Assembly (NCBI GenBank): GCA_016700035.1
Contig: CP064998.1
Location: 267,848-331,847 of the forward strand
Direction of reading: 5' to 3'
Length of the DNA stretch: 64,000 bases
Origin: a bacterium
GTDB taxonomy: Bacteria; Patescibacteriota; Saccharimonadia; CAILAD01; GCA-016700035
A program made the translations under genes and the position numbers. Every line of letters starts with the position of its first letter. The stretch's first letter is position 1. The notes beneath the pieces were generated by a model. It saw only the letters and a list, made by a program, of their open reading frames with translations, did not search any database and was not told the DNA's origin. This document shows positions 15,451-64,000 of the stretch, piece after piece.

Positions 15451-15589
15451 GCGTAACTAATAAAGCCTACATCAATATAGTTAACGTATATTAAAATATC
15501 ATGGCTATCAATAAATCATAGGCTTGCCATCTAAAATAATAGTAGTTATGATTAATGCAATAGTTAGAATAACTATATTTAATAAGCAT

Positions 15590-18151: not shown

Positions 18152-18390
18152 AAGGGGTGACTCAGAGCACTGTTGCTTAATAAGCAAACAACACTGTATT
18201 TGACGACCAATCTCTTGCATCTATAGCCCTAACCATAAGTACATTAATGTCTTGTATGAGAGAGTAGTTAGGTAGAGCATTAAATCAAGCACCCTCAAAA
18301 AACACCCAATCTACCCTCACACCCAATCTGGTTATGCTACAATACTAGAAAGAGTATAAGAGAAGAGTATTAAGAGGGTGTATAAAACAA

Positions 18391-21121: not shown

Positions 21122-21126
21122 TAACT

Positions 21127-23178
21127 GTGAGAAATTCAAGACTTATTAAATTAACTGCACTAACTAGACTAGCTAGCCTTACAAAAAACACTAACTACTT
21201 ATTACTATCCGTACTAATAACCCTAACTTCACTACTGCCCATACTACTACCAGCTACAGCAACAGCTGCACCATCCACTCCACCAGACTCTTGTTTTAGT
21301 TTTAATAGTGGCACTCAAACAATAGAGGATTATTATGATTACGAAGCCAACAACAATTCTAACCCTGCTTGCACCAGAGAAGTGATTATACCCAGCGCGA
21401 TTGGCGGCAATCTCGTTACTACTATTGGTTACGAGGCATTCTCTCAAAACCAACTCACCAGCGTCACCATCCCAAACTCCGTAACCTCTATTAGTGGCGA
21501 AGCTTTTAGTAGTAATCAACTCACCAGCATAACTATCCCTAACTCAGTCACTACTATTGGTTATTCTGCTTTCGCTGACAACCAACTCACCAGTGTTGTA
21601 ATACCTAACTCCGTGACTTCTATTGGTTCCGGTACCTTCCGCGACAACCAACTCACCAGTGTCACGATTGAGGGTAGTATTACAACAGCAGGGGGTAATG
21701 AATTTAGTAGTAACCCTATCCAAACCTTCACTTACGGCCTAGATACCTATACATCTTCAGACCCCCTAACAGAAGATTGTTTTGCCTTTGATGGCAGTAA
21801 TATAATAACTGGCTTTAACAAAGCAGATATAGCTACAATTAGAGACCACAGTAATGCTTGCTTAAACCCTAATGTAAATATACCTAGTACAATAGGCGGT
21901 AATTCTGTGACTACTATTGGTAACGAGGTTTTTATGTTAAGTCAAATCTCCAATGTCAATATACCAAATTCTGTTACAAGCATAGGTTTTGCAGCATTTG
22001 TCGGAAATAGACTCACCAGTGTTACTTTTCCTAACACGCTTTCTACTATTGGTGGATATGCTTTTAATCATAACCAAATTACTGAGGTAACTATTCCAGA
22101 CTCAGTTACTACATTAGGCTTACTTGCATTTGATCTTCAAACTAAACCAGGCGGAACAAGCTTGATGGATCTGCAAATGAGTGGACTTGACCCTCAAGTC
22201 ACTCAAGCCTTTATTGACAGCGTAATCTACACCAACATCTATGCCAGCCCTAGCCAAGTAACAGCTCTAAGTCTAGCTGATTCAGAATTGACCGAAGCAG
22301 ATATTATGAGCGAAGATATCAACGCCGACGGCGACCAAACAGACATAATCTCTGGCCAACTCATCAACCCAAGTAGAGTAACCGCCACCTACAAAGACAC
22401 AAACGGTAATACTATTGCCCCCAGCACTACAGCTACCGGCACAGGTTTGTCTTCCTACCTAGCAGTAGATAACCCAACCAATGATCTAGGCCTGTACTAC
22501 CGAGCTGGTGGTAGCTACACTGTACCAACCGCCCCTACCATTGCTGGCTACACTATCCAAACTACTCCAAGTAACATAGCTAGCCTATCTGCTGGAGACA
22601 ATCAAATCAACTATATCTATACAGCTAACAGCAACAATGAAGACAACACACTTTCCACACCTCTCTCCAACAACACCACCAGCTACCTAGTCTTGCCAGA
22701 TGATGTAACTAACCCTAGCTTTACTACTACACCAACTAACACTATCCCTAGTGACACAGCCTATTCCTTCCCAACTAGTCTAGTATCCTTTCAATTTGAT
22801 ACCACACCTGGATCAACTAAAGCTATAACCCTATACTTTGATCTTCCTGGTAACCCATCAGACTACACAGCCAGAAAGTATGACACCAATAACCATAGCT
22901 TTAGTACTATAACCTCAGCCACCATAACCAGAGAAACCTATAACAACAAATCTCTACTAAAACTAACCTACAACATCACCGATGGAGGTCTACTAGACCA
23001 AGACCACACAATCAACGGAACCATCATAGATCCAGTAGGTTTAGCTACTAACACAGTTGGTGCACCACAGACTGGAGTGGAGCGCTGGGGGAGTGGTTGG
23101 GTTGAGGATGCACTGGATGGAATTGTGGCATTTGGTATTGGTCTATGGAAACAGAGGACTGCTTTAGGTTGGTTTTGA
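21127..23178 (+). CDS. Surface protein with BspA-type leucine-rich repeats and C-terminal stalk domain
   Basis: Signal peptide (…LLPATATAAPSTPPDSCF). ~22-aa repeats 'NQLTSVTIPNSVTSIG..AF'. Stalk domain 'YTARKYD...LKLTYNITDGGLLDQD...IDPVGLA' then 'APQTG'. GTG start 5 nt after the BNR gene stop. Confidence 0.65.
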   Translation: MRNSRLIKLTALTRLASLTKNTNYLLLSVLITLTSLLPILLPATATAAPSTPPDSCFSFNSGTQTIEDYYDYEANNNSNPACTREVIIPSAIGGNLVTTIGYEAFSQNQLTSVTIPNSVTSISGEAFSSNQLTSITIPNSVTTIGYSAFADNQLTSVVIPNSVTSIGSGTFRDNQLTSVTIEGSITTAGGNEFSSNPIQTFTYGLDTYTSSDPLTEDCFAFDGSNIITGFNKADIATIRDHSNACLNPNVNIPSTIGGNSVTTIGNEVFMLSQISNVNIPNSVTSIGFAAFVGNRLTSVTFPNTLSTIGGYAFNHNQITEVTIPDSVTTLGLLAFDLQTKPGGTSLMDLQMSGLDPQVTQAFIDSVIYTNIYASPSQVTALSLADSELTEADIMSEDINADGDQTDIISGQLINPSRVTATYKDTNGNTIAPSTTATGTGLSSYLAVDNPTNDLGLYYRAGGSYTVPTAPTIAGYTIQTTPSNIASLSAGDNQINYIYTANSNNEDNTLSTPLSNNTTSYLVLPDDVTNPSFTTTPTNTIPSDTAYSFPTSLVSFQFDTTPGSTKAITLYFDLPGNPSDYTARKYDTNNHSFSTITSATITRETYNNKSLLKLTYNITDGGLLDQDHTINGTIIDPVGLATNTVGAPQTGVERWGSGWVEDALDGIVAFGIGLWKQRTALGWF

Positions 23179-49576: not shown

Positions 49577-49629
49577 AATTATATTGTAGCAGGCTTTTTA
49601 TTGTTGGTGACAAGTCCACAAGCTCAAGC

Positions 49630-52487: not shown

Positions 52488-53615
52488 ATGCTACACAAAA
52501 ATAAAAATAAATCAGGCCGGTTATTTCGCGCTATATTTGGTGGATTATTTCTGTTTGTAGCAGTGGTGTCGGCGACGGTGTGGTACCAAGCTCAACCAGC
52601 TCATGCCGATGATTTACAGCCTTTAATAGATGCTGTAACGCGTCAAATTCAAGATAATCAAGCTATAGTTAACCAAAAACAAGCCGAAGGTGACACATTG
52701 CAAAATCGGCTGACCGCGATTCAAGCTGAACTGTCGGCTGCTCGATCAAATCTAGAGCTAACTCGTCTGCGTATCGATCAAACCAAACTAGATCGCAAGA
52801 ATACCGAAGCTGATCTTAAAAAGACTACCGAGTTATTACGTCAGAATATCGCAGCTGCTTATAAGCAGGGGGATATATCGCCAATTGAGATCTTAGCCTC
52901 GAGCGAAAATCTGTCAGATTTTGTTGGCCGTCAGGAGTATTATGATGCACTACGTAAGAAAATTACCGAAAATGTGGATAGCATAAAGCTAGCCAAGAAA
53001 CAGCTGGAAGAATTTTCGCGCCAATTAAAAATCAAGGAAGAGCAACAGCGCTTAGAAGAAAAGGCAATTGCTGCCAAAGAAACAGAGCAGGCAGAGTTAC
53101 TGGCTAAGACGCGGGGCGATGAGGCAATTTATCGCGCATTAGTTGAAGCCGATACGACGCGGCTTGCTACCTTGCGGGCTCAGCAGTCGGCCGCTATTGC
53201 GGCTCAGAGTTTGGGGCGTAACTTTTCATTAACTACGGAATATCCTTGGACTGCGGTTGAGCCATTCCCGAGTCGCGGTGTAGACCCTTGGGGCTTTTAT
53301 TATCGACAATGTACTAGCTATGCGGCCTGGAAACGAGCCTCAATTGGCCGACCATTACCAGCTTGGGGATTTTTGGGGCCGGCTAATGCTAAGCAGTGGC
53401 CAGAATGGGCTGGTAAATTTGGTATGCGTGTAGATACAACTCCAGAAGTAGGAGCAGCTGCAGTTTATCCAGTGGGAGAGTATGGGCATGTCATGATTGT
53501 AGAGGGTATAGTATCAAATGGTGCGCAAGTGTTAGTTTCGGAGTTTAATGCTGATTGGGGTGGGCATTATTCACAGTCGCTGTGGCCAGTAAGCTCTCTT
53601 ATTTTTATCCATTAG
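52488..53615 (+). CDS. Second PcsB-like coiled-coil/CHAP hydrolase (paralogue)
   Basis: Same architecture; CHAP motifs 'QCTSYAAWK', 'KQWPEW' and 'GHVMIVEG'. ~35-40 % identity to the upstream copy. Confidence 0.7.
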   Translation: MLHKNKNKSGRLFRAIFGGLFLFVAVVSATVWYQAQPAHADDLQPLIDAVTRQIQDNQAIVNQKQAEGDTLQNRLTAIQAELSAARSNLELTRLRIDQTKLDRKNTEADLKKTTELLRQNIAAAYKQGDISPIEILASSENLSDFVGRQEYYDALRKKITENVDSIKLAKKQLEEFSRQLKIKEEQQRLEEKAIAAKETEQAELLAKTRGDEAIYRALVEADTTRLATLRAQQSAAIAAQSLGRNFSLTTEYPWTAVEPFPSRGVDPWGFYYRQCTSYAAWKRASIGRPLPAWGFLGPANAKQWPEWAGKFGMRVDTTPEVGAAAVYPVGEYGHVMIVEGIVSNGAQVLVSEFNADWGGHYSQSLWPVSSLIFIH

Positions 53616-53796
53616 AATGTCATTATTTACTATTTAACTTAATCACTATACCAGAACCAGAAGAGAGGGTAATTAACAGCTTGTTCACTAAGCACTCTAC
53701 CAACACATATAGTTCATATACGGACACTCTTTACAGATTTGTAAAATTAAGTTTTTTGGGTATTTTTAAATTCTTATGCTAAACTTTAACTAAGCA

Positions 53797-53814
53797 TTAG
53801 TACTTAAGTACTAA
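53797..53814. promoter_or_regulatory. 18-bp perfect palindrome TTAGTACTTAAGTACTAA in a conserved upstream module (candidate operator)
   Basis: Perfect inverted repeat, re-occurring with one mismatch at 63595-63612 within a ~90-nt duplicated 5' region. Confidence 0.35.
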
Positions 53815-53847
53815 TAAAGTATTCTAATGAGGGAGCTATACTTTTTA

Positions 53848-56481
53848 ATGAACCAACTAATAGCAAAGTTAATACATCAGCCATCAACCAATCTCAAAAC
53901 TAATCTATCTACAACTACCCAGTCCATCAAAACTAACAAACTATCTCTAGCCTTCCGTCTAACTCTAGGCCTAGTCTTATTCTCTGCTGTACTAATAGGC
54001 ATCAACCACCAATCCAAAGCATTAGCAGAAGTAAACAACAACTACACCTGGACCCAACGCAAGAATGGGTTTGTTGGCGATCAAATGAGCTGGTCCTCTA
54101 TCACCAGCTCCGCCGACGGCACCAAACTAGCTGCTGTAGCTAGGAACGGCTCCATCTACACCTCGGCTGATTCTGGCACCACCTGGACTGAACAAACGGC
54201 GGCTGGCTCCAGAGACTGGCTCTCCATCACCAGCTCGGCTGATGGCACTAAACTAGTTGCTGTAGTAAGCGGTGGCTCCATCTACACCTCCACCGACTCC
54301 GGCACCACCTGGACAGAGCAAACGGCGGCTGGATCCAGATACTGGATCTCCATCGCCAGCTCCGCTGACGGCACCAAACTAGCTGCAGTAGATAATGACG
54401 GTGGCTCCATCTACACCTCGGCTGATTCTGGCGCTACCTGGAGTGAACAAACAGCGGCTGGATCCAGATACTGGACATCCATCGCCAGCTCCGCTGATGG
54501 CACTAAGCTAGCCGCTGTAGCAAATGGCGGCAGCATCTACACCTCGGCTGATTCTGGCACCACCTGGACAGAGCAAACGGCGGCTGGATCCAGATACTGG
54601 ATCTCCATCGCCAGCTCCGCTGACGGCACCAAACTAGCTGCAGTAGCAAATGGTGGCTCCATCTACACCTCGGCTGATTCTGGCACCACCTGGACAGAGC
54701 AAACGGCGGCTGGATCCAGATACTGGTACTCCATCACCAGCTCCGCCGACGGCACTAAGCTAGCTGCTGCAACATACGGCGGCTCCATCTACACCTCCAC
54801 TGATTCTGGCGCTACCTGGAGTGAACAAACGGCGGCTGGCTCCAGAAGCTGGTACTCCATCACCAGCTCCGCCGACGGCACTAAACTAGCTGCTGTAGCT
54901 AGGAACGGCTCCATCTACACCTCTACTGACTCTGGTGCCACCTGGACAGAGCAAACGGCGGCTGGATCCAGATACTGGATCTCCATCGCCAGCTCCGCTG
55001 ACGGCACTAAACTAGCAGCCGTAGCATATAACGGCTACATCTACACCTCCACCGACTCTGGCGTTACCTGGACAGAACAAACCGCGGCTGGCTCCAGAAA
55101 CTGGTACTCCATCACCAGCTCCGCCGACGGCACCAAACTAGCTGCAGTAGATAATGACGGTGGCTCCATCTACACCTCGGCTGATTCTGGCGCTACCTGG
55201 AGTGAACAAACAGCGGCCGGTTCCAGAGACTGGTCCTCCATCACCAGCTCCGCCGACGGCACTAAGCTAGCTGCTGCAACATACGGCGGCTCCATCTACA
55301 CCTCCACTGATTCTGGCGCTACCTGGAGTGAACAAACGGCGGCTGGCTCCAGAAACTGGCGCTCCATCACCAGCTCGGCTGATGGCACTAAACTAGTTGC
55401 TGTAGTAAGCGGTGGCTCCATCTACACCTCCACCGACTCCGGCACCACCTGGACCGAACAAACTAGCGCTGGCTCCAGAAGCTGGCAATCCATCACCAGT
55501 TCCGCCGACGGCACCAAACTAGCTGCTGTAGTAAATGATGGCTCCATCTACACCTCGGCTGATTCTGGCGTAACTTGGTTATTGGTAAGTTTAGCTCCAG
55601 ATATTTACCCGCTTACTGCTACATATGCCAGTTCTAATAGCCAGCTATTTATTGGAGGAGCCAAGATAATAGATATGGATAATATGATATTTGAAAATGC
55701 CCTCTACACTTCAAATGACAACGGTCAGACTCTTACCGATATATCTATGCCAAACTCTTCAAAGTATTGGATCTCCATCACCAGCTCCGCTGACGGCACC
55801 AAACTAGCTGCTGTAGTAAGTGGCGGCTCCATCTACACCGGCAGCATAGAAGGCGAAGTAGTAGATCCACCAACTCCACCACCAAGCTCCAACACCGCTC
55901 AACTCACCACCCCCACTAGCCCTCTCTCTACCTTCTCTCTAAAACCAGTATCTCTAACCACCCCCACTGGCACTACCATTAACTCTAGCTCTACTGTCCC
56001 AGAATCTTCCCTAGTAACCCAAGACAACAACAACCAATACCCACTAGGCCTAGTAAACTTTAGCTTTACCACTAACCAAAGCTCTAACCAAGTAGTATTA
56101 AACTTTGAAACAGACTTAAAACCAAACCAAGTAACACCCAGAAAGTATAATCCTAACTCTAAGACCTATACCAACTTACCTACTAACGCTAATGTATCTA
56201 TAACCGAAACCACTATAAATAATAAACACTATCTAGTTCTAACCTATACCATCATAGACAATGGTGAACTAGACCTCGATCCAGCAGCTGGTACTATCTC
56301 TGACCTAGTCGGACTAGCCGTATCTAACTCTACCTATGACCAACTAGCGAGTACTGGGGAGAATACTCAACCAATACTACTAGCTACGGTACTATTTCTA
56401 GTAAGTGGCATAATTATAGTTGCTGGAGTTCTAGGGGTATTTAGTAGAAGGAAGATGCATATCCAAGTGGGAAGGCAATAA
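53848..56481 (+). CDS. BNR/Asp-box repeat beta-propeller surface protein with stalk domain and LASTG sorting signal (intact paralogue)
   Basis: ~14 blades 'SIYTS(A/T)DSG(A/T)TW(S/T)EQTAAGSR.W.SI(T/A)SSADGTKLAAV'. PT-rich linker and stalk '…LTYTIIDNGELDLDP…'. Ends 'LASTGENTQPILL' + TM + 'SRRK'. Start is set at the M conserved with 63646. Confidence 0.65.
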   Translation: MNQLIAKLIHQPSTNLKTNLSTTTQSIKTNKLSLAFRLTLGLVLFSAVLIGINHQSKALAEVNNNYTWTQRKNGFVGDQMSWSSITSSADGTKLAAVARNGSIYTSADSGTTWTEQTAAGSRDWLSITSSADGTKLVAVVSGGSIYTSTDSGTTWTEQTAAGSRYWISIASSADGTKLAAVDNDGGSIYTSADSGATWSEQTAAGSRYWTSIASSADGTKLAAVANGGSIYTSADSGTTWTEQTAAGSRYWISIASSADGTKLAAVANGGSIYTSADSGTTWTEQTAAGSRYWYSITSSADGTKLAAATYGGSIYTSTDSGATWSEQTAAGSRSWYSITSSADGTKLAAVARNGSIYTSTDSGATWTEQTAAGSRYWISIASSADGTKLAAVAYNGYIYTSTDSGVTWTEQTAAGSRNWYSITSSADGTKLAAVDNDGGSIYTSADSGATWSEQTAAGSRDWSSITSSADGTKLAAATYGGSIYTSTDSGATWSEQTAAGSRNWRSITSSADGTKLVAVVSGGSIYTSTDSGTTWTEQTSAGSRSWQSITSSADGTKLAAVVNDGSIYTSADSGVTWLLVSLAPDIYPLTATYASSNSQLFIGGAKIIDMDNMIFENALYTSNDNGQTLTDISMPNSSKYWISITSSADGTKLAAVVSGGSIYTGSIEGEVVDPPTPPPSSNTAQLTTPTSPLSTFSLKPVSLTTPTGTTINSSSTVPESSLVTQDNNNQYPLGLVNFSFTTNQSSNQVVLNFETDLKPNQVTPRKYNPNSKTYTNLPTNANVSITETTINNKHYLVLTYTIIDNGELDLDPAAGTISDLVGLAVSNSTYDQLASTGENTQPILLATVLFLVSGIIIVAGVLGVFSRRKMHIQVGRQ

Positions 56482-56483
56482 CT

Positions 56484-58052
56484 GTGAGTAATCTAAGACT
56501 GACTAAATTAACTACACTAAATAGACTAACAAGTTTATTTAAGAGAACTAACTACCTAGCCCTTAGCCTAATAATAAGCCTAACCTCAATTCTACCCATA
56601 CTACTACCAGCCTCGGCAAATGCTGCTCCATCCACCCCACCAGATTCTTGCTTTAACTTTGATTCAGGTACAGGCACTATTACCGATTATTATGACTATG
56701 AGGGCAACAACAACTCTAACCCCGCCTGCACCAGAGAACCCATTATACCCGGCACGATTGGTGGCAATGTAGTAACTGTAATTGGTAGCTCTGCCTTCTC
56801 TAGCAAACAACTCACCAGCGTTACAATTGGTAACTCTGTAACTTCTATTGATGAAGGTGCCTTCGCTGGCAACCAACTCACCAGCGTCATCATTGGTAAC
56901 TCTGTAGCTTCTATTGGTGGCTCTGCTTTTAATGCCAATATGCTTGAAACTGTAACTTTATCTAGTAATTTGTCGGGTCTTACGAGTGGTACAATTTTTA
57001 CCAATAATAAGATCCAAGAAATGCAAATACCTGATTCAATAACACTTATTGATACTTATACTTTTTTTGCACAGTCGCCAATAGGTGCAGGCTCTTATTA
57101 TGCTTTTATGAATAATGATTACTCTGCTCTAAACCAATACATGGCGACTAGTTGGTATGCTCGGTTGTTTACTAGCCCGGGGAATCCTAATAATCTTACA
57201 GATTCTTATGCTGTGGAGAGTGTCTTTGGTATGGATATGAACTCTGATGGTGATATGAACGACTCAATTGGTGGCCACCTCATCAACCCAAGTAGAGTAA
57301 CCACCAACTACAAAGACACAAATGGCAACACCATTGCCCCCAGCACCACAGCTACTGGCACAGGTTTATCTTCCTACCTAGCAGTAGACAACCCAACTAA
57401 TAACCTAAGCTTGTACTACAAAGCTGGTAATAGCTACACCGTACCACCAGCCCCATTTATACCTGGCTACACCATCCAAACCACACCAAGTAACATAGCT
57501 AGCCTAACAGCTGGTAATAACTCTATAGACTATATCTATACAGCTAACAGTAACAATGAAGACAACACACTCTCCACCCCACTCTCCAACAGCACCACTA
57601 GCTACCTAGTCCTACCAGATGATGTAACTAACCCTAGCTTTACTACTACACCAACTAACACTATCCCCAGTGATACAGCCTACTCCTTCCCAACTAGCCT
57701 AGTATCCTTTCAATTCGACACCACACCTGGATCAACTAAAGCTATAACTCTGTACTTTGATCTTCCCGGTAACCCATCAGACTACACAGCCAGAAAGTAC
57801 GACACCAATAACCATAGCTTTAGTACCATAGCCTCGGCAACCATAACTAGAGAAACCTATAACAACAAATCTCTACTAAAACTAACCTACAACATCACAG
57901 ACGGAGACAACCTAGATCAAGACCACACAGTCAACGGAACAATCATAGACCCAGTAGGTTTAGCTACTAACACAGTTGGTGCACCACAGACTGGAGTGGG
58001 GCGATGGGAGAGTAGTTGGGTTGCTACAATTCTTAGCTTCTTTGGGCTATAG
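56484..58052 (+). CDS. BspA-type leucine-rich-repeat surface protein (shorter paralogue of 21127-23178)
   Basis: Signal peptide, LRR_5-like repeats, and a stalk domain nearly identical at nt level to 22330-23100. Ends '…GAPQTGVGRWESSWVATILSFFGL*'. Confidence 0.6.
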   Translation: MSNLRLTKLTTLNRLTSLFKRTNYLALSLIISLTSILPILLPASANAAPSTPPDSCFNFDSGTGTITDYYDYEGNNNSNPACTREPIIPGTIGGNVVTVIGSSAFSSKQLTSVTIGNSVTSIDEGAFAGNQLTSVIIGNSVASIGGSAFNANMLETVTLSSNLSGLTSGTIFTNNKIQEMQIPDSITLIDTYTFFAQSPIGAGSYYAFMNNDYSALNQYMATSWYARLFTSPGNPNNLTDSYAVESVFGMDMNSDGDMNDSIGGHLINPSRVTTNYKDTNGNTIAPSTTATGTGLSSYLAVDNPTNNLSLYYKAGNSYTVPPAPFIPGYTIQTTPSNIASLTAGNNSIDYIYTANSNNEDNTLSTPLSNSTTSYLVLPDDVTNPSFTTTPTNTIPSDTAYSFPTSLVSFQFDTTPGSTKAITLYFDLPGNPSDYTARKYDTNNHSFSTIASATITRETYNNKSLLKLTYNITDGDNLDQDHTVNGTIIDPVGLATNTVGAPQTGVGRWESSWVATILSFFGL

Positions 58053-58160: not shown

Positions 58161-60833
58161 GTGAAGAAAAAGTTACAACGAAGAACAGCAGTAGTTAAAA
58201 GTCATATTGTGGCTCGGCTGGAAGTAGTTATTCCGTGCCATAACGAAGCCGAGACGCTACGGGATAATATTGAAAAAGTTGTTGCGTTTTTGGCGCAAAA
58301 TTTTTCTGATGACTGGTATATATCCATCGTAGATAGTGGTAGTACTGATGACACGCGAAAGATCGCTCAAGATTTAGCTCATAATTATAAGTCGGTGAAA
58401 GTACTTACTATAAATGAGCCTGGTCGAGGGTTGGCGCTTCGGATGGCAATTCGAGCCAGTCGGGCAGAATTTCTAGTATACATGGATGAAGATTTGTCGA
58501 CCGATTTGGAAATTGTTCCTCAGATACTAGAAGCACTTGATAAGCAACCAAAGACTTTTATAACTGCTAGTCGATTCATGCGAGAGTCGGTAGTTCGTCG
58601 TAGTTGGTTAAGGCGGGTTATGTCGATTGGCTATTCGTGGCTAGCACGGATATTTTTATCAATTAACGTTAAAGACCTGCAGTGTGGCTGTAAGGGTTTT
58701 CGCGTGAGTGACGTGAAGCCGATATTGGCTAAGGTGCAGGATAATCAGTGGTTTTTTGATACAGAGCTTTTTTATAGGGCGCGACAAGATGGATATAGCC
58801 TAGTGGAGCTGCCAGCACACTGGCAAGAGTCAAGCCGGACAAGCGTACGGTATGGCTCAACGATTTATAGATTTCTACGCGGGTTGAATCGTTTGGCACA
58901 TGAACGCAGTAAGTGGCGCCATCTGGATGCAGTAATTTTGGCCTCTCTACTAATATTGTTTTCAGGCCTGACAATACCCGCACTGTTAAAAAATGGTTGG
59001 GCAAATTCTTACTATACAGCCGCGGCATTAGCGGGCGCTAAAAGTTGGCAAGCCTTTTTCTTTGGGGGTTTTGATATGGCTGGTTATATATCCGTAGATA
59101 AGCCGCCTCTTGCAATATGGGTATCGGCCTTATCGGTGCGGATTTTAGGAACGCATGGTTGGGCGGTGCTTTTGCCCCATGTTTTAGCCGGCATAGCGAC
59201 AATGGCTGTAGTTTATGTGATGGTGAGGCGTTATTTTGGTACATTATCAGCTTGGGTGGCAGGTGTGTTTTTTGCCTTTACGCCAATTGCGGTAGTGGTT
59301 TTTAGATACAACAATCCTGATGCCGTTTTAACTCTTTGCCTAACATTAGCCACTTACGCTTTTTTGCGAACCCTCGAACGGCCAAGTTGGCGCTGGTCAA
59401 TATTGGCCGGCAGTATGGTTGGTGCGGCCTTTATGACGAAGATGCTCCAAGCGCTGATAGTGGTTCCGGTATTTATAGTGGGTTATTTTATGTTTGCCAA
59501 GCCAAATTGGCGTCAGCGCTGGCGCGATCTAATTGTGGCGTCATCAGCATTCTTAATTGCCTCTTTGTGGTGGCCGATTGTAGTGTGGGTAACGCCAGCA
59601 AGCAGTAGGCCATACATCGGCGGAACGGTTACGAATAATATATGGGAATTGATTGTTGGTTATAACGGATTAAATCGGTTACTTGGCAAGGATTGGTATC
59701 AGCCCACTGGCGAATTGCTGGGGGCAGCATTTGGTGGCCATATTGGAATCTTGCGATTTTTTAATGAGGCTTTTGGCTCGGTGATAGCCTGGGCACTCCC
59801 GTTAGCGTTATTGCTTGGAGGATTGTTGGTGACGCAGATGTGGCAAGCAAGAGCTTCGAAGCAATTTCGGGCAGTTGTGGTTTGGCTATTATTCGTCGGT
59901 TTGCATATTCTAACGATTAGCTTTACAAAAGGTACAATTCACCCCCACTATGCTGTTGTGATAGCTCCTATGGTAGCCTCGTTAGTTGCGGTGGCTTTTT
60001 GGTATTTTCGCGAAATAATTTTATTGCGCGACTATGATTCATGGGGGCTACTCTTAGGGATATTAATTATTGTTTTTAGCGCTAGTTTATTGCCTCTGTT
60101 TTTCTGGAAGGGAAGAGTATGGCCTCTATGGATAGTTGCGGTATCGATTGGCCTGGCGGTATTGGTGTTTGGTTTTTACGTGGTAGGGCGATTACGGAAA
60201 AGTAGTAGATTATTGTTGATTACTTGCTGGCTAGCTAGCTTGGCGCTGATTTTTGCACCGGCCGTATCAAGCTTAGCATCGGCACAATCTCAGCAGAGTG
60301 GGTTTATTATTTCAGCCGAGCCACTATCGGCAGATGTGTTAAAGCTTTGGCCTCCAGCTACTGAGTTACCGCCATTGATAAAGGACTTTTTGGAGCAGAA
60401 TAGGGGGTCTACCAAGTGGATTGCCACTTCAATTACTAGCTATGATGTATCGGCAGTAGAGATTTCAACTGGCCAGCCGGCTATGGCAATTGGTGGCTTT
60501 AGTGGTGTTGATAACCCGATGAGTTTGAATGAGTTTATAGATAAAGTTAAGTCTGGTGAGGTACGTTATTTTATAGTTAATCGGCGCCAATCTAGTGAGG
60601 TTAGGCAATGTGGGCTGACTTTTCGATTTGATGCTCGCAAGGAAAATAATAGCCGCACGCGAGTTGAGCAGTGTGATGTAGCCAAACTAGATCATGATGA
60701 AAAATCATCCAATAATATTGCTGTTTGGGCGCAACAACACAGTCGTATTGGCGAGGTGGAGTTTAAAGACTGGGAAATTTACGACTTGAGCTCTAAACTT
60801 GTGCCACCTAATGCTGCCGGGCCGACTCATTAA
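58161..60833 (+). CDS. Fused glycosyltransferase: N-terminal GT2 (polyprenol-phosphate sugar synthase-like) + C-terminal GT-C fold PMT/ArnT-like (PMT_2/YkcB-type) domain
   Basis: GT2 part: 'VVIPCHNEAETL', 'ISIVDSGSTDDT', 'YMDEDLSTD'. The C-terminal ~550 aa has ≥11 TM helices and an early 'DKPPLAIW' loop typical of PMT/ArnT family GT-C enzymes. Confidence 0.7.
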   Translation: MKKKLQRRTAVVKSHIVARLEVVIPCHNEAETLRDNIEKVVAFLAQNFSDDWYISIVDSGSTDDTRKIAQDLAHNYKSVKVLTINEPGRGLALRMAIRASRAEFLVYMDEDLSTDLEIVPQILEALDKQPKTFITASRFMRESVVRRSWLRRVMSIGYSWLARIFLSINVKDLQCGCKGFRVSDVKPILAKVQDNQWFFDTELFYRARQDGYSLVELPAHWQESSRTSVRYGSTIYRFLRGLNRLAHERSKWRHLDAVILASLLILFSGLTIPALLKNGWANSYYTAAALAGAKSWQAFFFGGFDMAGYISVDKPPLAIWVSALSVRILGTHGWAVLLPHVLAGIATMAVVYVMVRRYFGTLSAWVAGVFFAFTPIAVVVFRYNNPDAVLTLCLTLATYAFLRTLERPSWRWSILAGSMVGAAFMTKMLQALIVVPVFIVGYFMFAKPNWRQRWRDLIVASSAFLIASLWWPIVVWVTPASSRPYIGGTVTNNIWELIVGYNGLNRLLGKDWYQPTGELLGAAFGGHIGILRFFNEAFGSVIAWALPLALLLGGLLVTQMWQARASKQFRAVVVWLLFVGLHILTISFTKGTIHPHYAVVIAPMVASLVAVAFWYFREIILLRDYDSWGLLLGILIIVFSASLLPLFFWKGRVWPLWIVAVSIGLAVLVFGFYVVGRLRKSSRLLLITCWLASLALIFAPAVSSLASAQSQQSGFIISAEPLSADVLKLWPPATELPPLIKDFLEQNRGSTKWIATSITSYDVSAVEISTGQPAMAIGGFSGVDNPMSLNEFIDKVKSGEVRYFIVNRRQSSEVRQCGLTFRFDARKENNSRTRVEQCDVAKLDHDEKSSNNIAVWAQQHSRIGEVEFKDWEIYDLSSKLVPPNAAGPTH

Positions 60834-60917
60834 ATAGAAGACCTTGTTTATTGGTATTAAACTAGTTATGATTACATGGAAGATATATTAATCGTAGTCA
60901 GTTAAGGATAAGGACAT

Positions 60918-63506
60918 ATGCCAACAAAAACTCCCAGTCTAATCAATAGTAGATCCAACATCAGTTTACGCTGGAACAATCTATGGCTACTAGTGGCTGT
61001 ATTTGTGGTGCTCTCATTGGCAGTTGGTTATTTTGCTCTACCATATGTACGGGCTGCTGGTGAAATTAACCAAATAGGGTGTATTAACTGTCCGCCAGAT
61101 GGGGCATTTGGCTTACGAGATGCTGGCGATGTAGCTATCGACACGAGTGGTAATGTATATGTTACGCGCAATGATAATACGAGCCATATAGTTAAGCTTG
61201 ACTCTGCCGGTAATATGGTTAGTTCATTCGGGCCATACGGAACTGGTAACGCTGAGTTTGAGGGGGTTCGGGGAATTGCAGTTGATAGCTCCAATAGTAT
61301 TTATGTGATAGAGGGTACATATAATAAGGTTAAAAAGTTTAATTCAGACGGTACATTTGTTTTAGAGTGGGACGGTAGTGCAGGTGCTGGCGGTCAACTC
61401 AGTAATCCTGCCGATCTCGCGGTGGACTCCAGTGGTAATATCCTTGTGGTAGATACCAATAATAATCGTATTCAAAAGTTTAACAGCTCAGGCGTGTATC
61501 AATCAGATTTTGGCAGTAATGGTACTGGTGATGGGCAGTTTAGTTATCCTTCCGATCTCACGGTGGACTCCAGTGGTAATATTTATGTTGCAGATACCGA
61601 CAATCATCGTATTCAAAAGTTTAACAGCTCAGGCGTGTATCAGTCACAGTTTGGCAGTAATGGTACTGGTGATGGGCAGTTTAGTTATCCACGCGGGATT
61701 ACAATAGATAGTGCAGATAATATTTATGTTGCAGACACCTCTAATAATCGCATTCAAAAGTTTAATAGCTCTCATGTATTCCAGACGGAATGGGGTAGTA
61801 GCGCAAGTTCTTATGGTGCTGAACCGGGAGAGATGAGCGGGCCTAAAGGTATAGCACACGATAGTAGTAATAATATATATATCGCCGATCAATATAACAA
61901 TCGCGTACAGAAATTTACTTCAACTGGTAGCCTAATTACCCAATATGGAACTACAGGATTAAGCTCATACGGTGGCTATGAAGACTCTTATGGTAATGGT
62001 GGGTCTGGTAATAATGTGCGTTTCAATACACCCGCTGGAACAGCAGTAGATCATGATGGTAATACCTATGTGAGTGATGCAGATAATAGTAGGATTATGA
62101 AGTTTAATAGCGCTGGTAATTTTGTTAGCCAGATTGCTAGTAGCTCAGTGGGCTCATATGGCGAGCCATCCAATGGTTCGAATAATGGAGAGTTTGAGTA
62201 TCCTATGGGTATGGTGACCGATGCTAGCAATAACCTTTATGTTGCAGATGTTGGCAATAACCGCATCCAGAAATTTAACAGCTCAGGAGCTCATCAACTT
62301 AGCTTTGGTGGCAACGGACCATATGGAGGTGGTAGTGGGGATGGTCAACTTATGATGCCATTCGACGTTGCCTTGGATGGGACGGGCAATATATATGTTG
62401 CCGATATGTCCAATGACCGTTTGCAGAAGTTTGATTCGAGTGGGAACTATCTTGCTAAGACTACTAGTGCTGTGTCTTCACTGGGTGGAGTGGTGTCGGC
62501 TGAAAGTTTTGGTGATGTTCAGATGCTTGGCGGTGTTGATGCTAGTGAAGCTGGAGGGCCGGTATCTGTGGCGGTTGGACCAGATGGAAATGTTTGGGCG
62601 CTGACGTATGGTAAGCTACTTAAATACAGCGCCAATCTAGAGCCAATTCAAAATTGGGATATTTCAGATGGCTTTACGTATATGAGCATCGGAGTTAGGG
62701 TGGATAAGGATAATAATGTTTATATTGGGCAATTTAATGACAGTGGCCCTGGTGGTCGGTTACTAAAATTTGATTCAAGCGGCAATCAGGTGGGCGTATG
62801 GGATGATGGGTATCGTATGGATGAATTTATGCCTATGCTCCCAGCAATCGATCCGGAGATTGATGGACGCTTGGCGGTGCCTAGTGTGATGCAGAATAAA
62901 GTTGTCTTCCTCTGCGACACCGATGTCTCCACCAATAACTGCTCTGGCCCTAACGATGGTGGTGGCAACTCTGGTGGTGGAGAGGAATCTAGTACCTACT
63001 TCTACAACAACTCATCCAATGATTCCATCACTTATCTAATAGCCCCAGACACTGCTACTAACTTCTCTCTGTCTGGTGTAGACTACGCTAGTTTACAAAA
63101 AGATGGATCTAATCTCTTCCCAGCTGGTCTCACAAGCTTTAACTTTGACGCCACCCCTAACTCTGCTACCACCATTACTATCTACTACGATCTACCCGGT
63201 GCTCCAACAGGCTACACAGCTCGTAAATACAATACCGCCAATCAAACCTATGCCGATATTCCAGGAGCTACCATTACCCGAGAAGACTACAGCGGTAAGA
63301 GTCGTCTAAAGCTAACTTACTCCATCACAGACAATGGACCACTCGATCAAGATCCTACTCCAGGCCACGTAGTAGACCCAGTTGGTCTAGCTACTACCTC
63401 TGCCTTTCTAGCTAGTACTGGTCTAAACTTCTGGCTCTATGTAGTTGGAGCCATCAGCCTACTTGGTGCTGGTAGCTATCTAGTCCGTCAGTACAGTCGG
63501 CGGTAG
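60918..63506 (+). CDS. NHL-repeat surface protein with stalk domain and LASTG sorting signal (paralogue of 15590-18151)
   Basis: 'NNRIQKFNSSG' NHL motifs. C-terminal 590 nt are about 93 % identical (by eye) to 17575-18151. Ends 'LASTGLNFWLYVVGAISLLGAGSYLVRQYSRR'. Confidence 0.7.
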   Translation: MPTKTPSLINSRSNISLRWNNLWLLVAVFVVLSLAVGYFALPYVRAAGEINQIGCINCPPDGAFGLRDAGDVAIDTSGNVYVTRNDNTSHIVKLDSAGNMVSSFGPYGTGNAEFEGVRGIAVDSSNSIYVIEGTYNKVKKFNSDGTFVLEWDGSAGAGGQLSNPADLAVDSSGNILVVDTNNNRIQKFNSSGVYQSDFGSNGTGDGQFSYPSDLTVDSSGNIYVADTDNHRIQKFNSSGVYQSQFGSNGTGDGQFSYPRGITIDSADNIYVADTSNNRIQKFNSSHVFQTEWGSSASSYGAEPGEMSGPKGIAHDSSNNIYIADQYNNRVQKFTSTGSLITQYGTTGLSSYGGYEDSYGNGGSGNNVRFNTPAGTAVDHDGNTYVSDADNSRIMKFNSAGNFVSQIASSSVGSYGEPSNGSNNGEFEYPMGMVTDASNNLYVADVGNNRIQKFNSSGAHQLSFGGNGPYGGGSGDGQLMMPFDVALDGTGNIYVADMSNDRLQKFDSSGNYLAKTTSAVSSLGGVVSAESFGDVQMLGGVDASEAGGPVSVAVGPDGNVWALTYGKLLKYSANLEPIQNWDISDGFTYMSIGVRVDKDNNVYIGQFNDSGPGGRLLKFDSSGNQVGVWDDGYRMDEFMPMLPAIDPEIDGRLAVPSVMQNKVVFLCDTDVSTNNCSGPNDGGGNSGGGEESSTYFYNNSSNDSITYLIAPDTATNFSLSGVDYASLQKDGSNLFPAGLTSFNFDATPNSATTITIYYDLPGAPTGYTARKYNTANQTYADIPGATITREDYSGKSRLKLTYSITDNGPLDQDPTPGHVVDPVGLATTSAFLASTGLNFWLYVVGAISLLGAGSYLVRQYSRR

Positions 63507-63594
63507 AAAGTGAGCCCCATAGTAGGGGATTTTAAACCGCTGGCATATAGTGAATATGCAAAACATAACCTCTATGCTAAACTTTAACTAAGCA

Positions 63595-63612
63595 TTAGCA
63601 CTTAAGTACTAA
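63595..63612. promoter_or_regulatory. Second copy of the palindromic upstream element (TTAGCACTTAAGTACTAA)
   Basis: Part of a ~90-nt region near-identical to 53771-53847. Confidence 0.3.
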
Positions 63613-63645
63613 TAAAGCACTCTAATAAAGGGATTTATACTTTTA

Positions 63646-64000
63646 ATGAACCAACTAATAGCTAAGTTAATACACCAGCCAACAACCAAGCTTAAAACTA
63701 ATCTATCTACAGCTACCCAGTCCATCAAAACCGACAGTATAACTAACACAACCAAAAGACTAAACTACCTAACTCTTAGCCTACTAATAAGCCTAACCTC
63801 AATACTGCCAATACTACTACCAGCTACAGCTAATGCTGCCCCATCCACCCCACCAGATAGTTGCTTTGACTACACCACCAACCTAGGTGAAGTAACAATT
63901 ACCGATTACTACGACCACGAAGCCAACAACAACTCCAATCCCGCCTGTACCAGAGAAGTTATTATACCTAGCATTATTGGCGGTAACTCTGTAACTTCTA
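63646..64000 (+). CDS. Mosaic surface protein, 3'-truncated by window end: BNR-cassette-type N-terminal leader fused to LRR-cassette-type signal peptide/LRR start
   Basis: 'MNQLIAKLIHQPTTKLKTNLSTATQSIKT' matches the N-terminus of 53848. '…LLPATANAAPSTPPDSCF…YYDHEANNNSNPACTREVIIPS' matches the mature N-terminus of the LRR proteins 21127 and 56484. Confidence 0.5.
   Translation, partial: MNQLIAKLIHQPTTKLKTNLSTATQSIKTDSITNTTKRLNYLTLSLLISLTSILPILLPATANAAPSTPPDSCFDYTTNLGEVTITDYYDHEANNNSNPACTREVIIPSIIGGNSVTS

What the first reader, a model, noticed from the sequence alone, without database searches (positions are those of the whole stretch)
53740..53850. Duplicated promoter/5' leader module with an 18-bp perfect palindrome, and a mosaic gene using it
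About 90 nt upstream plus the first ~90 nt of coding sequence are near-identical between 53771-53940 and 63569-63735 (…tatgctaaactttaactaagcattagtacttaagtactaataaag…atgaaccaactaatagc…). The core is the perfect palindrome TTAGTACTTAAGTACTAA (53797-53814; one mismatch at 63595-63612), which is an attractive dimeric-regulator operator. The downstream copy drives a mosaic ORF whose first 30 aa are BNR-type and whose remainder is LRR-type. That is direct evidence of recombination between cassette genes, and of a portable regulatory/leader unit.
Basis: seen in the sequence. Interest (0 to 1): 0.5.

Follow-up and report, generated by a model that had tools for sequence, protein, structure and literature searches.

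The report
Shared promoter-leader cassette of surface-protein genes
Two surface-protein genes in a tiny Saccharibacteria-like genome share a 164-base 'front end' (promoter, leader and start of the export signal) that recombination moves between different protein bodies; this is a familiar way of varying a cell surface, and the palindrome inside it has no proven regulatory role.

Summary
Window 53775-53938 and 63573-63736 align at 90% over 165 columns (E 1e-49): 73 nt upstream plus the first 30 codons. The palindrome is 20 bp and perfect (53796-53815); copy B has one mismatch. The repeat starts at an extended -10-like element (TATGCTAAACT) of the type found upstream of many other genes here.

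The genes encode sortase-type surface proteins (BNR, BspA-LRR or NHL passenger, then choice-of-anchor U and an LAxTG-like signal). They lie in an accessory island between a pcsB-like CHAP gene and ctpA; relatives lack the island.

In two other strains, copy B with the same signal peptide drives a BNR-FN3 protein instead of the LRR protein. The joint is the Ala-Ala-Pro codons at the signal-peptide cleavage site. Alleles of copy A carry patches of copy-B sequence. So the recombining "portable leader unit" and the mosaic gene are supported.

The operator idea is not supported, though not excluded. Perfect symmetry exists in one allele only. The palindrome block varies as much as the coding part. 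No regulator gene lies nearby, and no third site was found. A 5'-terminal mRNA hairpin fits position equally well, but its folding energy is unremarkable.

This is a new member of a known kind, of modest interest.

The parts
53775..53938 (+). Module copy A: extended -10, 5' leader with palindrome, Shine-Dalgarno sequence, ATG and the first 30 codons of the BNR gene
   Evidence: 90.3% identical to 63573-63736 over 165 columns, E 1e-49. Present with three alleles in contigs of other strains: L084, L085, L087-L090.
63573..63736 (+). Module copy B, in front of the LRR gene that runs off the window
   Evidence: The same copy lies at the same locus (after the NHL gene, before ctpA) in L115 7790-7960 and L116 5055-5225, where it drives a BNR-FN3 protein.
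53775..53785 (+). Candidate promoter P1 of copy A: TATGcTAAACT (TRTG -16 element plus -10 hexamer TAAACT 53780-53785). Predicted transcription start about 53792.
   Evidence: Sequence. TGnTAnnnT is about 2-fold enriched in intergenic DNA (41 of 208 hits against 10.6% expected, p 7e-5). The same type of element sits 6-9 nt before the ATG of leaderless genes, e.g. mreB TGATAAACT. TG and hexamer are kept in all five alleles. The start site is inferred, not mapped.
63573..63583 (+). Candidate promoter P1 of copy B (TATGcTAAACT)
   Evidence: L115/L116 have CATGCTAAACT, with the TG retained.
53796..53815 (.). 20-bp perfect palindrome ATTAGTACTT|AAGTACTAAT, the core of the finding
   Evidence: As RNA it is an 8-bp stem with a UUAA loop, -6.8 kcal/mol. 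It lies at +4..+23 of the P1 transcript, or is centred near -42.5 if the leaderless promoter P2 is the one used (inference).
63594..63613 (.). Copy-B version of the palindrome with one mismatch (ATTAGCACTTAAGTACTAAT)
   Evidence: Identical in L115 and L116. RNA hairpin only -2.1 kcal/mol.
53829..53835 (+). Shine-Dalgarno-like GAGGGAG, 12 nt before the ATG (copy B: AAGGGA 63628-63633)
   Evidence: Sequence. The core AGGGA is kept in all alleles.
53837..53842 (+). Alternative -10-like hexamer TATACT (candidate promoter P2), 5 nt before the ATG in this allele and 4 nt in the others
   Evidence: Same GCTATACT type as before the leaderless lepB-like and rseP genes. Conserved in all alleles. The spacing is shorter than in the other leaderless genes (6-9 nt).
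53848..56481 (+). BNR2: signal peptide, about 14 BNR/Sortilin-type repeats, choice-of-anchor U, LASTG sorting signal
   Evidence: Pfam Sortilin-Vps10/BNR. NF041766 40.8 bits against a cut-off of 32. Translation.
56484..58052 (+). LRR2: BspA-type LRR, MucBP and choice-of-anchor U. Starts 2 nt after the BNR2 stop, so it is presumably co-transcribed.
58161..60833 (+). GT2-PMT_2 fusion glycosyltransferase inside the island
   Evidence: Also in the island of L115.
60918..63506 (+). NHL2: NHL-repeat surface protein with choice-of-anchor U and an LASTG signal
63646..64000 (+). LRR3 (cut by the window end), the mosaic ORF: n-region shared with BNR2, an 18-nt unassigned linker (63737-63753), then an LRR-type hydrophobic region and LRR passenger
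   Evidence: From 63754 it is 76.5% identical to LRR2 56541-56777 and 73% to LRR1.
53616..53765 (+). Decayed 5' end of another cassette gene (remnant of the MTEAEAEA... open reading frame that follows the CHAP gene in L115/L086). Homology fades about 10 nt before the module starts.
   Evidence: Alignment A5. This marks the 5' edge of the module as a recombination joint.
15524..23178 (+). Paralogous cluster 1 (NHL1, BNR1, LRR1) in the frr-rseP slot. It supplies the comparison for the mosaic structure and has different promoters and leaders.
   Evidence: The slot holds other genes or is empty in relatives L078-L080.

Best explanation
The repeat is the common 5' expression cassette of a family of sortase-anchored surface proteins in a Saccharibacteria-like (Patescibacteria) bacterium with a genome of about 0.9 Mb.

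It contains, in order:
- an extended -10 promoter (TATGcTAAACT, no recognisable -35);
- a leader of about 55 nt that begins with the 20-bp palindrome and carries an AGGGA ribosome-binding site;
- the ATG;
- the polar n-region of 30-33 codons of a long Sec signal peptide.

Two copies lie in one accessory island between a pcsB-like CHAP gene and ctpA. They are kept 90% alike by homologous recombination or gene conversion.

The family also shares a conserved hydrophobic signal-peptide block ending in Ala-x-Ala|Ala-Pro, and a conserved 3' block (choice-of-anchor U plus an LAxTG-like signal). Together these blocks provide the homology by which passenger domains (BNR, BNR-FN3, BspA-LRR) are exchanged between loci and between strains. 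The gene at 63646 is one product of such an exchange.

Shown: the repeat, its extent, its alleles, the alternative passengers at the same locus, the shared joints, and the island's presence or absence.

Inferred: promoter use, the transcription start, and homologous (not site-specific) recombination as the mechanism.

The palindrome is part of the transferred unit. I think it most likely has no sequence-specific regulator. At most it acts as a 5'-proximal mRNA hairpin, or as an operator in the allele where it is intact.
For: Repeat and extent.

Promoter:
- The TRTGnTAnnnT type recurs upstream of genes. It is enriched in intergenic DNA.
- It fixes the ATG of about 11-15 leaderless genes at 6-9 nt.
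- The BNR1 gene and its relative L002 have GTTATGCTA(C/T)AAT at the equivalent place.
- The 5' edge of the homology coincides with this element. It also coincides with the end of homology to a decayed gene remnant.

Protein family: Pfam and NCBIfam hits. Three different passenger classes carry NF041766 above the cut-off.

Accessory island: the CHAP gene is directly followed by ctpA in L096/L097, L101 and all 10 places shown (L102-L111) for CtpA homolog P0037. The island is present in the window and in L115/L116.

Cassette exchange:
- L115/L116 have module B plus an identical n-region and hydrophobic region, fused to APGDWQWQK..BNR..2xFN3..choice-of-anchor U. The window has APSTPPDSCF..LRR at that point.
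- P0002/L002 and P0003/L003 show the reciprocal combinations.

Gene conversion: among strains of the species the 159 nt upstream of the module are identical. The 73-nt upstream part of the module carries 6 changes in L084/L088, and 4 of them are the copy-B state.

Reproducibility: copy-specific differences recur in independent assemblies.
Against: - No transcription start data exist. A second -10-like hexamer (TATACT, 4-5 nt before the ATG) is also conserved and could define a leaderless promoter instead.
- Only two copies of the module are known in this genome, because only 64 kb of about 916 kb could be read.
- The direction of exchange (which gene donated the module) cannot be determined.
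- Recombination is inferred from mosaic patterns, not observed.
- The -10-to-palindrome block has 1 mismatch in 44 against 17 in 120 elsewhere between the two window copies (Fisher p 0.045). This could hint at some constraint, but the signal disappears when five alleles are compared.
Confidence: 0.8

Rival explanations
1. The palindrome is the operator of a dimeric helix-turn-helix regulator that co-regulates the two transcription units (BNR2-LRR2 and LRR3). Binding at +4..+23 of promoter P1 would block RNA polymerase. Alternatively, if the leaderless promoter P2 is the one used, binding near -42.5 would activate it or occlude the -35 region.
For: - 20-bp perfect dyad in one allele and 17 of 18 in the others.
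- Its position overlaps or abuts a promoter-like element in both readings.
- The identical 18-mer fills the -35/-10 spacer of promoter-like sequences next to XRE/Cro-type regulator genes in unrelated metagenome contigs L042 and L043 (also L050, L059, L062). So this sequence is the kind that HTH dimers bind.
- Only two sites in the window, both in front of surface-protein genes.
Against: - Symmetry-breaking substitutions are fixed in lineages: position 5 T>C in copy B of three strains, position 18 A>G in alleles A2/A3.
- The block is no more conserved than the neighbouring coding sequence across five alleles.
- No DNA-binding regulator gene was found in the window (nearly all ORFs of 120 aa or more were scanned) or among the genes called in the flanks fetched from relatives. 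Only ParB, an LCP protein, GreA and a stand-alone receiver domain were seen.
- The other family promoters (BNR1, NHL1, NHL2, glycosyltransferase) lack it.
- A perfect palindrome of this length is expected 0.077 times per window by chance.
Confidence: 0.2
2. The palindrome acts in the RNA. It forms a stem-loop within about 4 nt of the 5' end of the P1 transcript, protects the mRNA of abundant surface proteins from 5'-end-dependent decay, and travels with the leader for that reason.
For: - With the predicted start at about 53792, the hairpin begins at +4/+5 (inference).
- 8-bp stem with a UUAA loop, -6.8 kcal/mol in allele A1. The A>G change of alleles A2/A3 gives a U.G pair with unchanged energy, although it breaks the DNA symmetry.
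- It is in the minimum-free-energy fold of copy A.
- 5'-terminal hairpins with few unpaired 5' nucleotides are known mRNA stabilisers (ompA in E. coli, leaders in B. subtilis; from my own knowledge, not checked here).
Against: - Copy B in three strains has a C.A mismatch in mid-stem, and the hairpin drops to -2.1 kcal/mol. The MFE fold of copy B does not contain the hairpin.
- Folding energies are not better than shuffles: z -0.16, -0.05, -1.18 and 0.05.
- No Rfam match at the gathering threshold or at E up to 1.
- The leaders of BNR1 and L002 show no obvious equivalent hairpin (read by eye, not folded).
- The transcription start is unproven.
Confidence: 0.2
3. The palindrome has no function of its own. 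It is a chance or mutational product (for example template switching that perfected a quasi-palindrome) in an AT-rich leader, and it was simply copied along with the module.
For: - Expected frequency of 0.077 per window for arms of 10 or more. A second perfect 18-bp palindrome lies inside parB.
- It is perfect in one allele only.
- Its variability equals that of neighbouring sequence.
- Another family leader (NHL1) has its own unrelated 7+3+7 palindrome that its paralog NHL2 lacks.
- No regulator gene nearby, and no structural significance in folding.
Against: - It lies in the 10.6% of the window that is intergenic, directly next to a promoter-like element.
- All five alleles keep at least 17 of 18 positions.
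- The block from the -10 to the palindrome is the best conserved part between the two window copies (1 of 44 mismatches, p 0.045).
Confidence: 0.45
4. The module belongs to a programmed phase- or antigenic-variation switch, like the mycoplasma vsp/vpma/vsa systems. In such systems a recombinase joins an expression site to alternative silent cassettes.
For: - Conserved 5' UTR and signal-peptide region on divergent surface-protein genes in one cluster.
- Alternative passengers behind the same module at the same locus in different strains.
- Assemblies break repeatedly at these genes.
Against: - No recombinase or invertase gene in the window or in the fetched flanks.
- Both copies are in direct orientation, and each has its own promoter-like element and a complete gene.
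- No inverted copies of the joint were seen.
- The variation seen is between strains, not within one assembly.
Confidence: 0.07

Closest known systems
Mycoplasma agalactiae vpma / M. bovis vsp variable surface lipoprotein families
   Same: The 5' untranslated region and the signal-peptide coding region are conserved within a clustered multigene family, while the mature parts differ (PMC2268961). The surface repertoire is varied by recombination.
   Different: Those genes encode lipoproteins. They are switched by a site-specific recombinase (Xer1, per the paper and my own knowledge) that inverts DNA to place one promoter in front of silent genes. Here the proteins have Sec/SPase I-type signal peptides and LAxTG-like sorting signals. 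Each copy has its own -10 element, the genes are in direct orientation, and no recombinase gene is nearby. The exchange looks like ordinary homologous recombination or gene conversion, seen between strains.
Extended -10 (TRTGn-TATAAT, '-16 region') promoters of Gram-positive bacteria, and leaderless mRNAs
   Same: TATGcTAAACT fits TRTG-n-TAnnnT. The same genome places such elements 6-9 nt before the ATG of many genes. No -35 match is needed or seen.
   Different: The consensus is recalled from my own knowledge. No start-site data exist for this organism. The module has a long leader with a ribosome-binding site, unlike the leaderless housekeeping genes around it.
CI/Cro-type (XRE family) operators in phage genetic switches
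   Same: The identical 18-bp dyad TTAGTACTTAAGTACTAA lies between -35-like and -10-like hexamers next to XRE-type HTH genes in unrelated contigs L042 and L043.
   Different: Here there is no XRE gene nearby, no phage context and no shared flanking sequence. The dyad lies downstream of the -10, not in the spacer. The identity of the 18-mer is compatible with chance: 20 hits in 596 Gb of genomes and 54 in metagenomes.
5'-terminal stabilising stem-loops of bacterial mRNAs (e.g. the ompA leader)
   Same: A hairpin predicted within about 4 nt of the predicted 5' end of an mRNA for an abundant envelope protein.
   Different: It is weak and AU-rich (-6.8 kcal/mol), disrupted in copy B, and not significant against shuffles. 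The comparison rests on my own knowledge and on a predicted start site.
Hypervariable surface-protein gene of a Gracilibacteria (CPR) genome
   Same: A CPR bacterium with a population-variable surface-protein locus that breaks assemblies, and with long stem-loops noted in the flanking untranslated regions (PMC6851277).
   Different: That case is nucleotide hypervariation within a tandem repeat of one gene. This case is exchange of whole passenger cassettes between conserved 5' and 3' blocks.

Membership tests
Extended -10 sigma-70-type promoter | TG at -15/-14 one base upstream of a TAnnnT hexamer | tested here: met
   TATGcTAAACT at 53775-53785 and 63573-63583. TG and hexamer are kept in all five alleles.
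Extended -10 sigma-70-type promoter | The motif is used as a promoter in this organism | tested here: inconclusive
   The motif is enriched in intergenic DNA (p 7e-5). 15 of 46 genes have TAnnnT 5-10 nt before the start codon, against 10.6% of all ATGs. This is indirect evidence; AT-richness of intergenic DNA contributes.
Extended -10 sigma-70-type promoter | Transcripts start about 7 nt downstream | not testable with these tools
   No RNA data. The generic promoter scan, which demands a -35, found nothing at either copy.
Operator of a dimeric HTH repressor or activator | Dyad symmetry of 14-20 bp | tested here: met
   20-bp perfect palindrome at 53796-53815; 19 of 20 at 63594-63613.
Operator of a dimeric HTH repressor or activator | Symmetric positions conserved more than their surroundings in homologous sites | tested here: not met
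   Five alleles: two different symmetry-breaking changes within 18 bp. The block's variability (about 11%) equals that of the coding part (about 11%).
Operator of a dimeric HTH repressor or activator | Cognate regulator gene, usually nearby | tested here: not met
   No HTH regulator gene was found among the scanned ORFs (120 aa or longer; the scan was nearly complete) of the 64-kb window, or among the genes called in the fetched flanks of relatives. The remaining ~850 kb of the genome could not be read.
Operator of a dimeric HTH repressor or activator | Further sites forming a regulon | tested here: inconclusive
   Only the two duplicated sites in the window. Collection scans returned no related locus. 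They also missed contig Ga0114917_10183, which carries the site, so they are incomplete.
Structured cis-regulatory RNA (riboswitch, attenuator or 5' stabiliser) | Match to a curated RNA family | tested here: not met
   Rfam at the gathering threshold on the whole window: none. At E up to 1 on 53600-53960: only one chance-level hit on the other strand.
Structured cis-regulatory RNA (riboswitch, attenuator or 5' stabiliser) | Folding energy better than shuffles, and pairs kept by compensatory change | tested here: not met
   z-scores -0.16, -0.05, -1.18 and 0.05. One variant is compatible (U.G) and one disruptive (C.A, -6.8 to -2.1 kcal/mol).
vsp/vpma/vsa-type programmed surface variation locus | Conserved 5' UTR and signal-peptide region on divergent clustered surface-protein genes | tested here: met
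vsp/vpma/vsa-type programmed surface variation locus | Site-specific recombinase and invertible segments; a single expression site | tested here: not met
   No recombinase gene found. The copies are in direct orientation, each with its own -10 and a full gene.
Choice-of-anchor U, sortase-sorted surface proteins | NF041766 domain above the curated cut-off, followed by an LPXTG-like motif, a hydrophobic helix and a basic tail | tested here: met
   47.4, 40.8, 58.1 and 43.6 bits against a cut-off of 32 for NHL2, BNR2, LRR2 and the L115 BNR-FN3 protein. LASTG plus helix plus RR/KK tail appears in the translations. The LRR proteins have a variant APQTG. A sortase gene lies about 7-9 kb past ctpA in relatives.

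The most novel reading that the evidence does not exclude
The module is a self-contained, transferable 'promoter-operator-export signal' unit. In this reading a still unidentified regulator binds the dyad and switches a set of host-contact adhesins on or off together. The long polar n-region routes them to a dedicated export or glycosylation path (the island carries a GT2-PMT glycosyltransferase). An episymbiotic Saccharibacterium could then plug new passenger domains into an existing regulated expression and secretion slot.
Probability: 0.12. Interest if true: 0.55.

Novelty: new member of a known kind. Interest (0 to 1): 0.3.

Why it matters
Patescibacteria such as Saccharibacteria live attached to other bacteria. 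How they recognise and hold hosts is largely unknown, and their surface proteins are prime candidates.

This locus gives a concrete, sequence-level example of passenger domains (BNR, BNR-FN3, LRR) being swapped behind one promoter, leader and signal peptide, and in front of one anchor module. The swapping happens inside islands that sister strains lack.

That explains why these regions break assemblies. It also offers defined joints (the -10 element, the Ala-Ala-Pro cleavage-site codons, the choice-of-anchor U block) for tracking cassette exchange in metagenomes.

In addition, it provides a candidate native promoter, leader and signal peptide for expression tools in the few genetically tractable Saccharibacteria. 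The palindrome itself would matter only if a binding protein or a stability effect were demonstrated.

Tried and rejected
1. Intrinsic terminator. The scan found none at either copy. The stem is AU-rich and has no T-run.
2. Known RNA family. None at the gathering threshold or at E up to 1.
3. Stable conserved RNA structure. z-scores are near 0.
4. Exact scans of genome contigs and metagenome contigs for TTAGYACTTAAGTRCTAA gave 20 and 54 loci. None shares flanks with the window (blastn), and none is titled as CPR.
   - The scans proved incomplete. JGI contig Ga0114917_10183 carries TTAGCACTTAAGTACTAA but was not returned. Absence there is therefore weak evidence.
5. Protein searches with the mosaic N-terminus and with the BNR2 N-terminus gave 3 hits and 0 hits. 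No protein in the database carries the MNQLIAKLIHQP leader.
6. Possible homology of the module leader to the leader in L003 (TAAGCAT.AGT...TAATGAGGGA at the same distance from a -10). Local alignment against shuffles gave p 0.013 (copy A) and 0.10 (copy B). This is not robust, so it was dropped. The leaders of NHL1, NHL2, the glycosyltransferase and L001 show no similarity.
7. L003's upstream gene is a sugar kinase, so L003 is not a positional ortholog.
8. Reaching copy B and the full LRR3 gene in the source strain failed. Contigs carrying the exact glycosyltransferase or CtpA proteins stop in the repeated 3' block. The exact NHL2 protein is not on record.
9. Assembly artefact as the explanation for the duplication was rejected. 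The copies differ at 10% of positions, and the copy-specific differences recur in independent assemblies.
10. An upstream start at ATG 53827 was rejected because it is absent from other alleles and from copy B.

Full report
**1. The observation**

The two segments are there. Window 53775-53938 and 63573-63736 align at 90.3% identity over 165 columns (E 1e-49). The shared part is 73 nt upstream of the start codon plus 91 nt of coding sequence.

TTAGTACTTAAGTACTAA lies at 53797-53814. A one-mismatch version lies at 63595-63612. No other match with up to three mismatches exists in the window. The palindrome extends to a perfect 20-mer, 53796-53815.

Under a first-order Markov model, a perfect palindrome with arms of 10 or more is expected 0.077 times per 64 kb. 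A second perfect 18-mer lies inside parB. The palindrome alone is therefore only mildly improbable. What is significant is the duplication.

The true start codons are ATG 53848 and ATG 63646. The in-frame ATG at 53827 is missing in other alleles and in copy B.

**2. What the genes are**

The window holds two paralogous clusters of large secreted proteins.

| Cluster | Genes (window coordinates) |
|---|---|
| 1 | NHL1 15590-18151, BNR1 18391-20502, LRR1 21127-23178 |
| 2 | BNR2 53848-56481, LRR2 56484-58052, GT2-PMT glycosyltransferase 58161-60833, NHL2 60918-63506, LRR3 from 63646 |

The passengers are Sortilin/BNR repeats, BspA-type LRR plus MucBP, or NHL repeats. All three classes end in a choice-of-anchor U domain above NCBIfam's cut-off, then an LASTG-type motif (APQTG in the LRR proteins). 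In the NHL and BNR proteins a hydrophobic helix and a basic tail follow.

The exact MreB, CHAP and CtpA proteins of this locus are NCBI QQS27215.1, QQS27236.1 and QQS27241.1, from a 916,044-bp record labelled '[bacterium]'. Their 90%-identity cluster mates are named Candidatus Saccharibacteria or Patescibacteria.

**3. The module begins at a promoter-like element**

The first bases of the repeat are TATGCTAAACT, that is TRTG-n-TAnnnT, an extended -10. Several observations support its use as a promoter:

- TGnTAnnnT is enriched about two-fold in the 10.6% of the window that is intergenic (p 7e-5).
- 15 of 46 genes have a TAnnnT hexamer 5-10 nt before the start codon, against 10.6% of all ATGs. 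Examples are TGATAAACT-7-ATG (mreB), TGGTATAAT-8-ATG (serS) and TGCTACAAT-6-ATG (murA). Many mRNAs here appear to be leaderless, and these cases define what a promoter looks like in this organism.
- BNR1 and its relative in L002 have GTTATGCTA(C/T)AAT at the equivalent place.

With this promoter (P1) the start would be near 53792 and the palindrome would occupy +4 to +23.

A second hexamer, (A)GCTATACT, lies only 5 nt (this allele) or 4 nt (other alleles) before the ATG. It is also conserved. If it were used (P2, leaderless), the dyad would be centred near -42.5. Only start-site mapping can decide. P1 fits better for two reasons: the spacing of P2 is shorter than in every other leaderless gene here, and an AGGGA ribosome-binding site is conserved in the leader.

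**4. Evidence from other strains**

Exact-protein look-ups recovered contigs of the same species and of close relatives.

- *The island is accessory.* The CHAP gene is directly followed by ctpA in L096/L097, in a 700,989-bp JGI contig (L101), and in all ten places shown (L102-L111; 23 contigs were read) for a CtpA homolog 82% identical to that of L101. Cluster 2 is therefore an accessory island. The frr-rseP slot that holds cluster 1 contains CotH/LTD genes in L078/L080. In L079 it holds only a remnant of a sorting signal.
- *Copy A has three alleles.* It is present in L084, L085 and L087-L090. The 159 nt upstream are identical in all of them. The 73-nt upstream part of the module carries six changes in L084/L088, and four of these are the copy-B state. 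This is the signature of patchy gene conversion between the copies.
- *Copy B drives a different protein elsewhere.* L115 (JGI) and L116 (ENA) span the island in other strains. Copy B lies at the same place, with the same one-mismatch palindrome, the same n-region and the same hydrophobic region. It is fused to a BNR-2xFN3-choice-of-anchor U protein that begins APGDWQWQK. In the window the fusion partner is the LRR protein that begins APSTPPDSCF. The joint is the GCTGC(C/A)CC (Ala-Ala-Pro) codons at the predicted signal-peptidase site.
- *The same joint recurs in relatives.* It separates the BNR1-type promoter and signal peptide from an LRR passenger in L002. It also separates an LRR-type signal peptide from a BNR passenger in L003.
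- *The 5' edge is a recombination joint.* Window 53616 to about 53765 is the decayed 5' end of the gene that follows the CHAP gene in L115/L086. That homology fades about 10 nt before the module begins.

**5. The mosaic claim**

LRR3 shares its first 30 codons with BNR2 at about 91%. After an 18-nt unassigned linker (63737-63753), it matches LRR2 at 76.5% and LRR1 at 73%.

'BNR-type' is a misnomer, however. BNR1 has a different N-terminus. The complete LRR3 signal peptide sits on a BNR protein in sister strains.

At least three n-region types, three hydrophobic-region types and two mature-start types (BNR, including BNR-FN3, and LRR) occur in six combinations.

**6. The palindrome**

*As an operator.* The dyad and its position are suitable. 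The identical 18-mer fills the spacer of promoter-like sequences next to XRE/Cro-type genes in unrelated contigs (L042, L043). Against this reading:

- Perfect symmetry is found in one allele only.
- Copy B has T>C at position 5 in three strains. Alleles A2/A3 have A>G at position 18.
- Across five alleles, the block from the -10 to the palindrome varies at about 5 of 44 columns and the coding part at about 10 of 90.
- No DNA-binding regulator gene was found in the window (nearly all ORFs of 120 aa or more were scanned) or in the flanks fetched from relatives.
- The other family promoters lack the site.

*As RNA.* It is an 8-bp, AU-rich hairpin of -6.8 kcal/mol that would sit at the very 5' end of the P1 transcript. 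The A>G variant keeps it (U.G), but the copy-B variant reduces it to -2.1 kcal/mol. Folding is not better than shuffles. Rfam has nothing.

I therefore rate 'no specific function, carried along with the module' as the single most likely status (about 0.45). Operator and 5' hairpin each rate about 0.2.

**7. Limits**

- Only 64 kb of a genome of about 916 kb could be read, so 'two sites' is a lower bound.
- The public collection scans for the palindrome returned only unrelated loci. They missed a JGI contig that demonstrably carries the site, so they cannot be used as evidence of absence.
- Promoter use, the start site and the recombination mechanism are inferences.

**8. Comparison and verdict**

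The arrangement works like the conserved 5' UTR and signal-peptide blocks of the mycoplasma vsp/vpma families (PMC2268961). It is not a member of that kind of system: there is no recombinase, no inversion and no single expression site, and the proteins are sortase-type substrates rather than lipoproteins.

It is a new member of a known kind. It is a modular surface-protein family whose conserved 5' and 3' blocks mediate cassette exchange, documented here in a Patescibacteria lineage with strain-level evidence.

Interest is modest (0.3). The duplication and the mosaic are real and nicely resolved. The regulatory reading that made the finding attractive is unproven.

Noticed in passing
window, e.g. 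25124-25139 (mreB), 31796-31812 (serS), 36086-36101, 49577-49591 (murA, minus strand), 14737-14751 (frr), 23228-23243 (rseP): Many genes appear to be leaderless. A (T)G(G/C)TAnAAT or GCTATACT element ends 6-9 nt before the ATG, with no Shine-Dalgarno sequence. 15 of 46 genes have TAnnnT 5-10 nt upstream of the start, against 10.6% of all ATGs.
   Followed up: partly
window 2472-2489: A second perfect 18-bp palindrome, AAACTGATCGATCAGTTT, lies inside the parB gene (1968-2936), in the HTH-coding part. It does not resemble the canonical parS. Because parS sites often lie in or near parB, it could be a divergent centromere site or plain chance.
   Followed up: no
window 20502-21121: BNR1 looks interrupted. 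Its ORF stops at 20502, but homology to the 3' third of BNR2 continues (20522-21148 matches 55879-56505 at 81-84%). A separate 92-aa ORF (20843-21121) carries the end of the choice-of-anchor U domain and the sorting signal. This is a frameshift or pseudogene, or a sequencing error in a repeat-rich gene.
   Followed up: no
window 15345-15450; L079 4560-4660: A remnant of a C-terminal sorting-signal coding block (74-79% identical to the 3' ends of NHL1 and NHL2) lies upstream of NHL1. In strain L079 the frr-rseP slot contains only this remnant, as if the cluster had been deleted by recombination between 3' blocks (D16, 27, 68).
   Followed up: partly
L078/L080 3529-8038, compared with window 15524-23178: The frr-rseP slot holds entirely different genes in a relative with an identical MreB: a CotH+LTD protein of 754 aa and a 738-aa protein. 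It is a second strain-variable surface-protein island.
   Followed up: partly
L115 190-260; L086 11129-11214; window 53650-53665: In other strains the gene after the CHAP gene starts with a (GAAGCA)n array encoding MTEAEAEAEA..., preceded in L115 by a tandem duplication of TATGCTATAGTTATGACAGAA. The window keeps only a decayed trace (ccagaaccagaag). In L115 the reading frame is broken between this start and the LRR body.
   Followed up: partly
L042 333-350; L043 3115-3132; also L050, L059, L062, L049/L054: In unrelated metagenome contigs the identical 18-bp palindrome fills the spacer between TTGAC(A/T) and TATAAT/TATGAT next to XRE/Cro-type HTH genes (with an ImmA-like gene in L043). It is apparently an operator of phage-type genetic switches.
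   Followed up: partly
L008, L009, L010, L019, L023 (Saprospiraceae MAGs): Five of the 20 genome hits for the palindrome are in Saprospiraceae. In three of them (L009, L010, L023) the palindrome sits inside a longer dyad (e.g. ATTTGTC-TTAGTAC..GTACTAA-GACAAAT), and several hits lie at contig ends. This suggests a repeated element in that family.
   Followed up: no
L115 7819-7836 (contig Ga0114917_10183): This JGI contig contains TTAGCACTTAAGTACTAA, which fits the scanned pattern, yet the metagenome-contig scan did not return it. The collection scanned is evidently not the same as, or is smaller than, the collection indexed by protein.
   Followed up: yes
window 15560-15576: The NHL1 leader has its own unrelated 7+3+7 inverted repeat, ATAGTTAgaaTAACTAT, just downstream of a TATGAT -10-like hexamer. 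The paralogous NHL2 leader (60866-60917) lacks it.
   Followed up: no
window 40000-44000: G+C rises to 0.58-0.60 against about 0.45 elsewhere, over ORFs with no Pfam match or only weak ones (39607-41097, 41243-42073, 42197-43348). Rfam finds no rRNA there.
   Followed up: no
window 58161-60833; L115 2386-5058: A GT2-PMT_2-YkcB_C fusion glycosyltransferase is a constant member of the island, lying among the Ser/Thr-rich surface-protein genes. It may glycosylate them.
   Followed up: no
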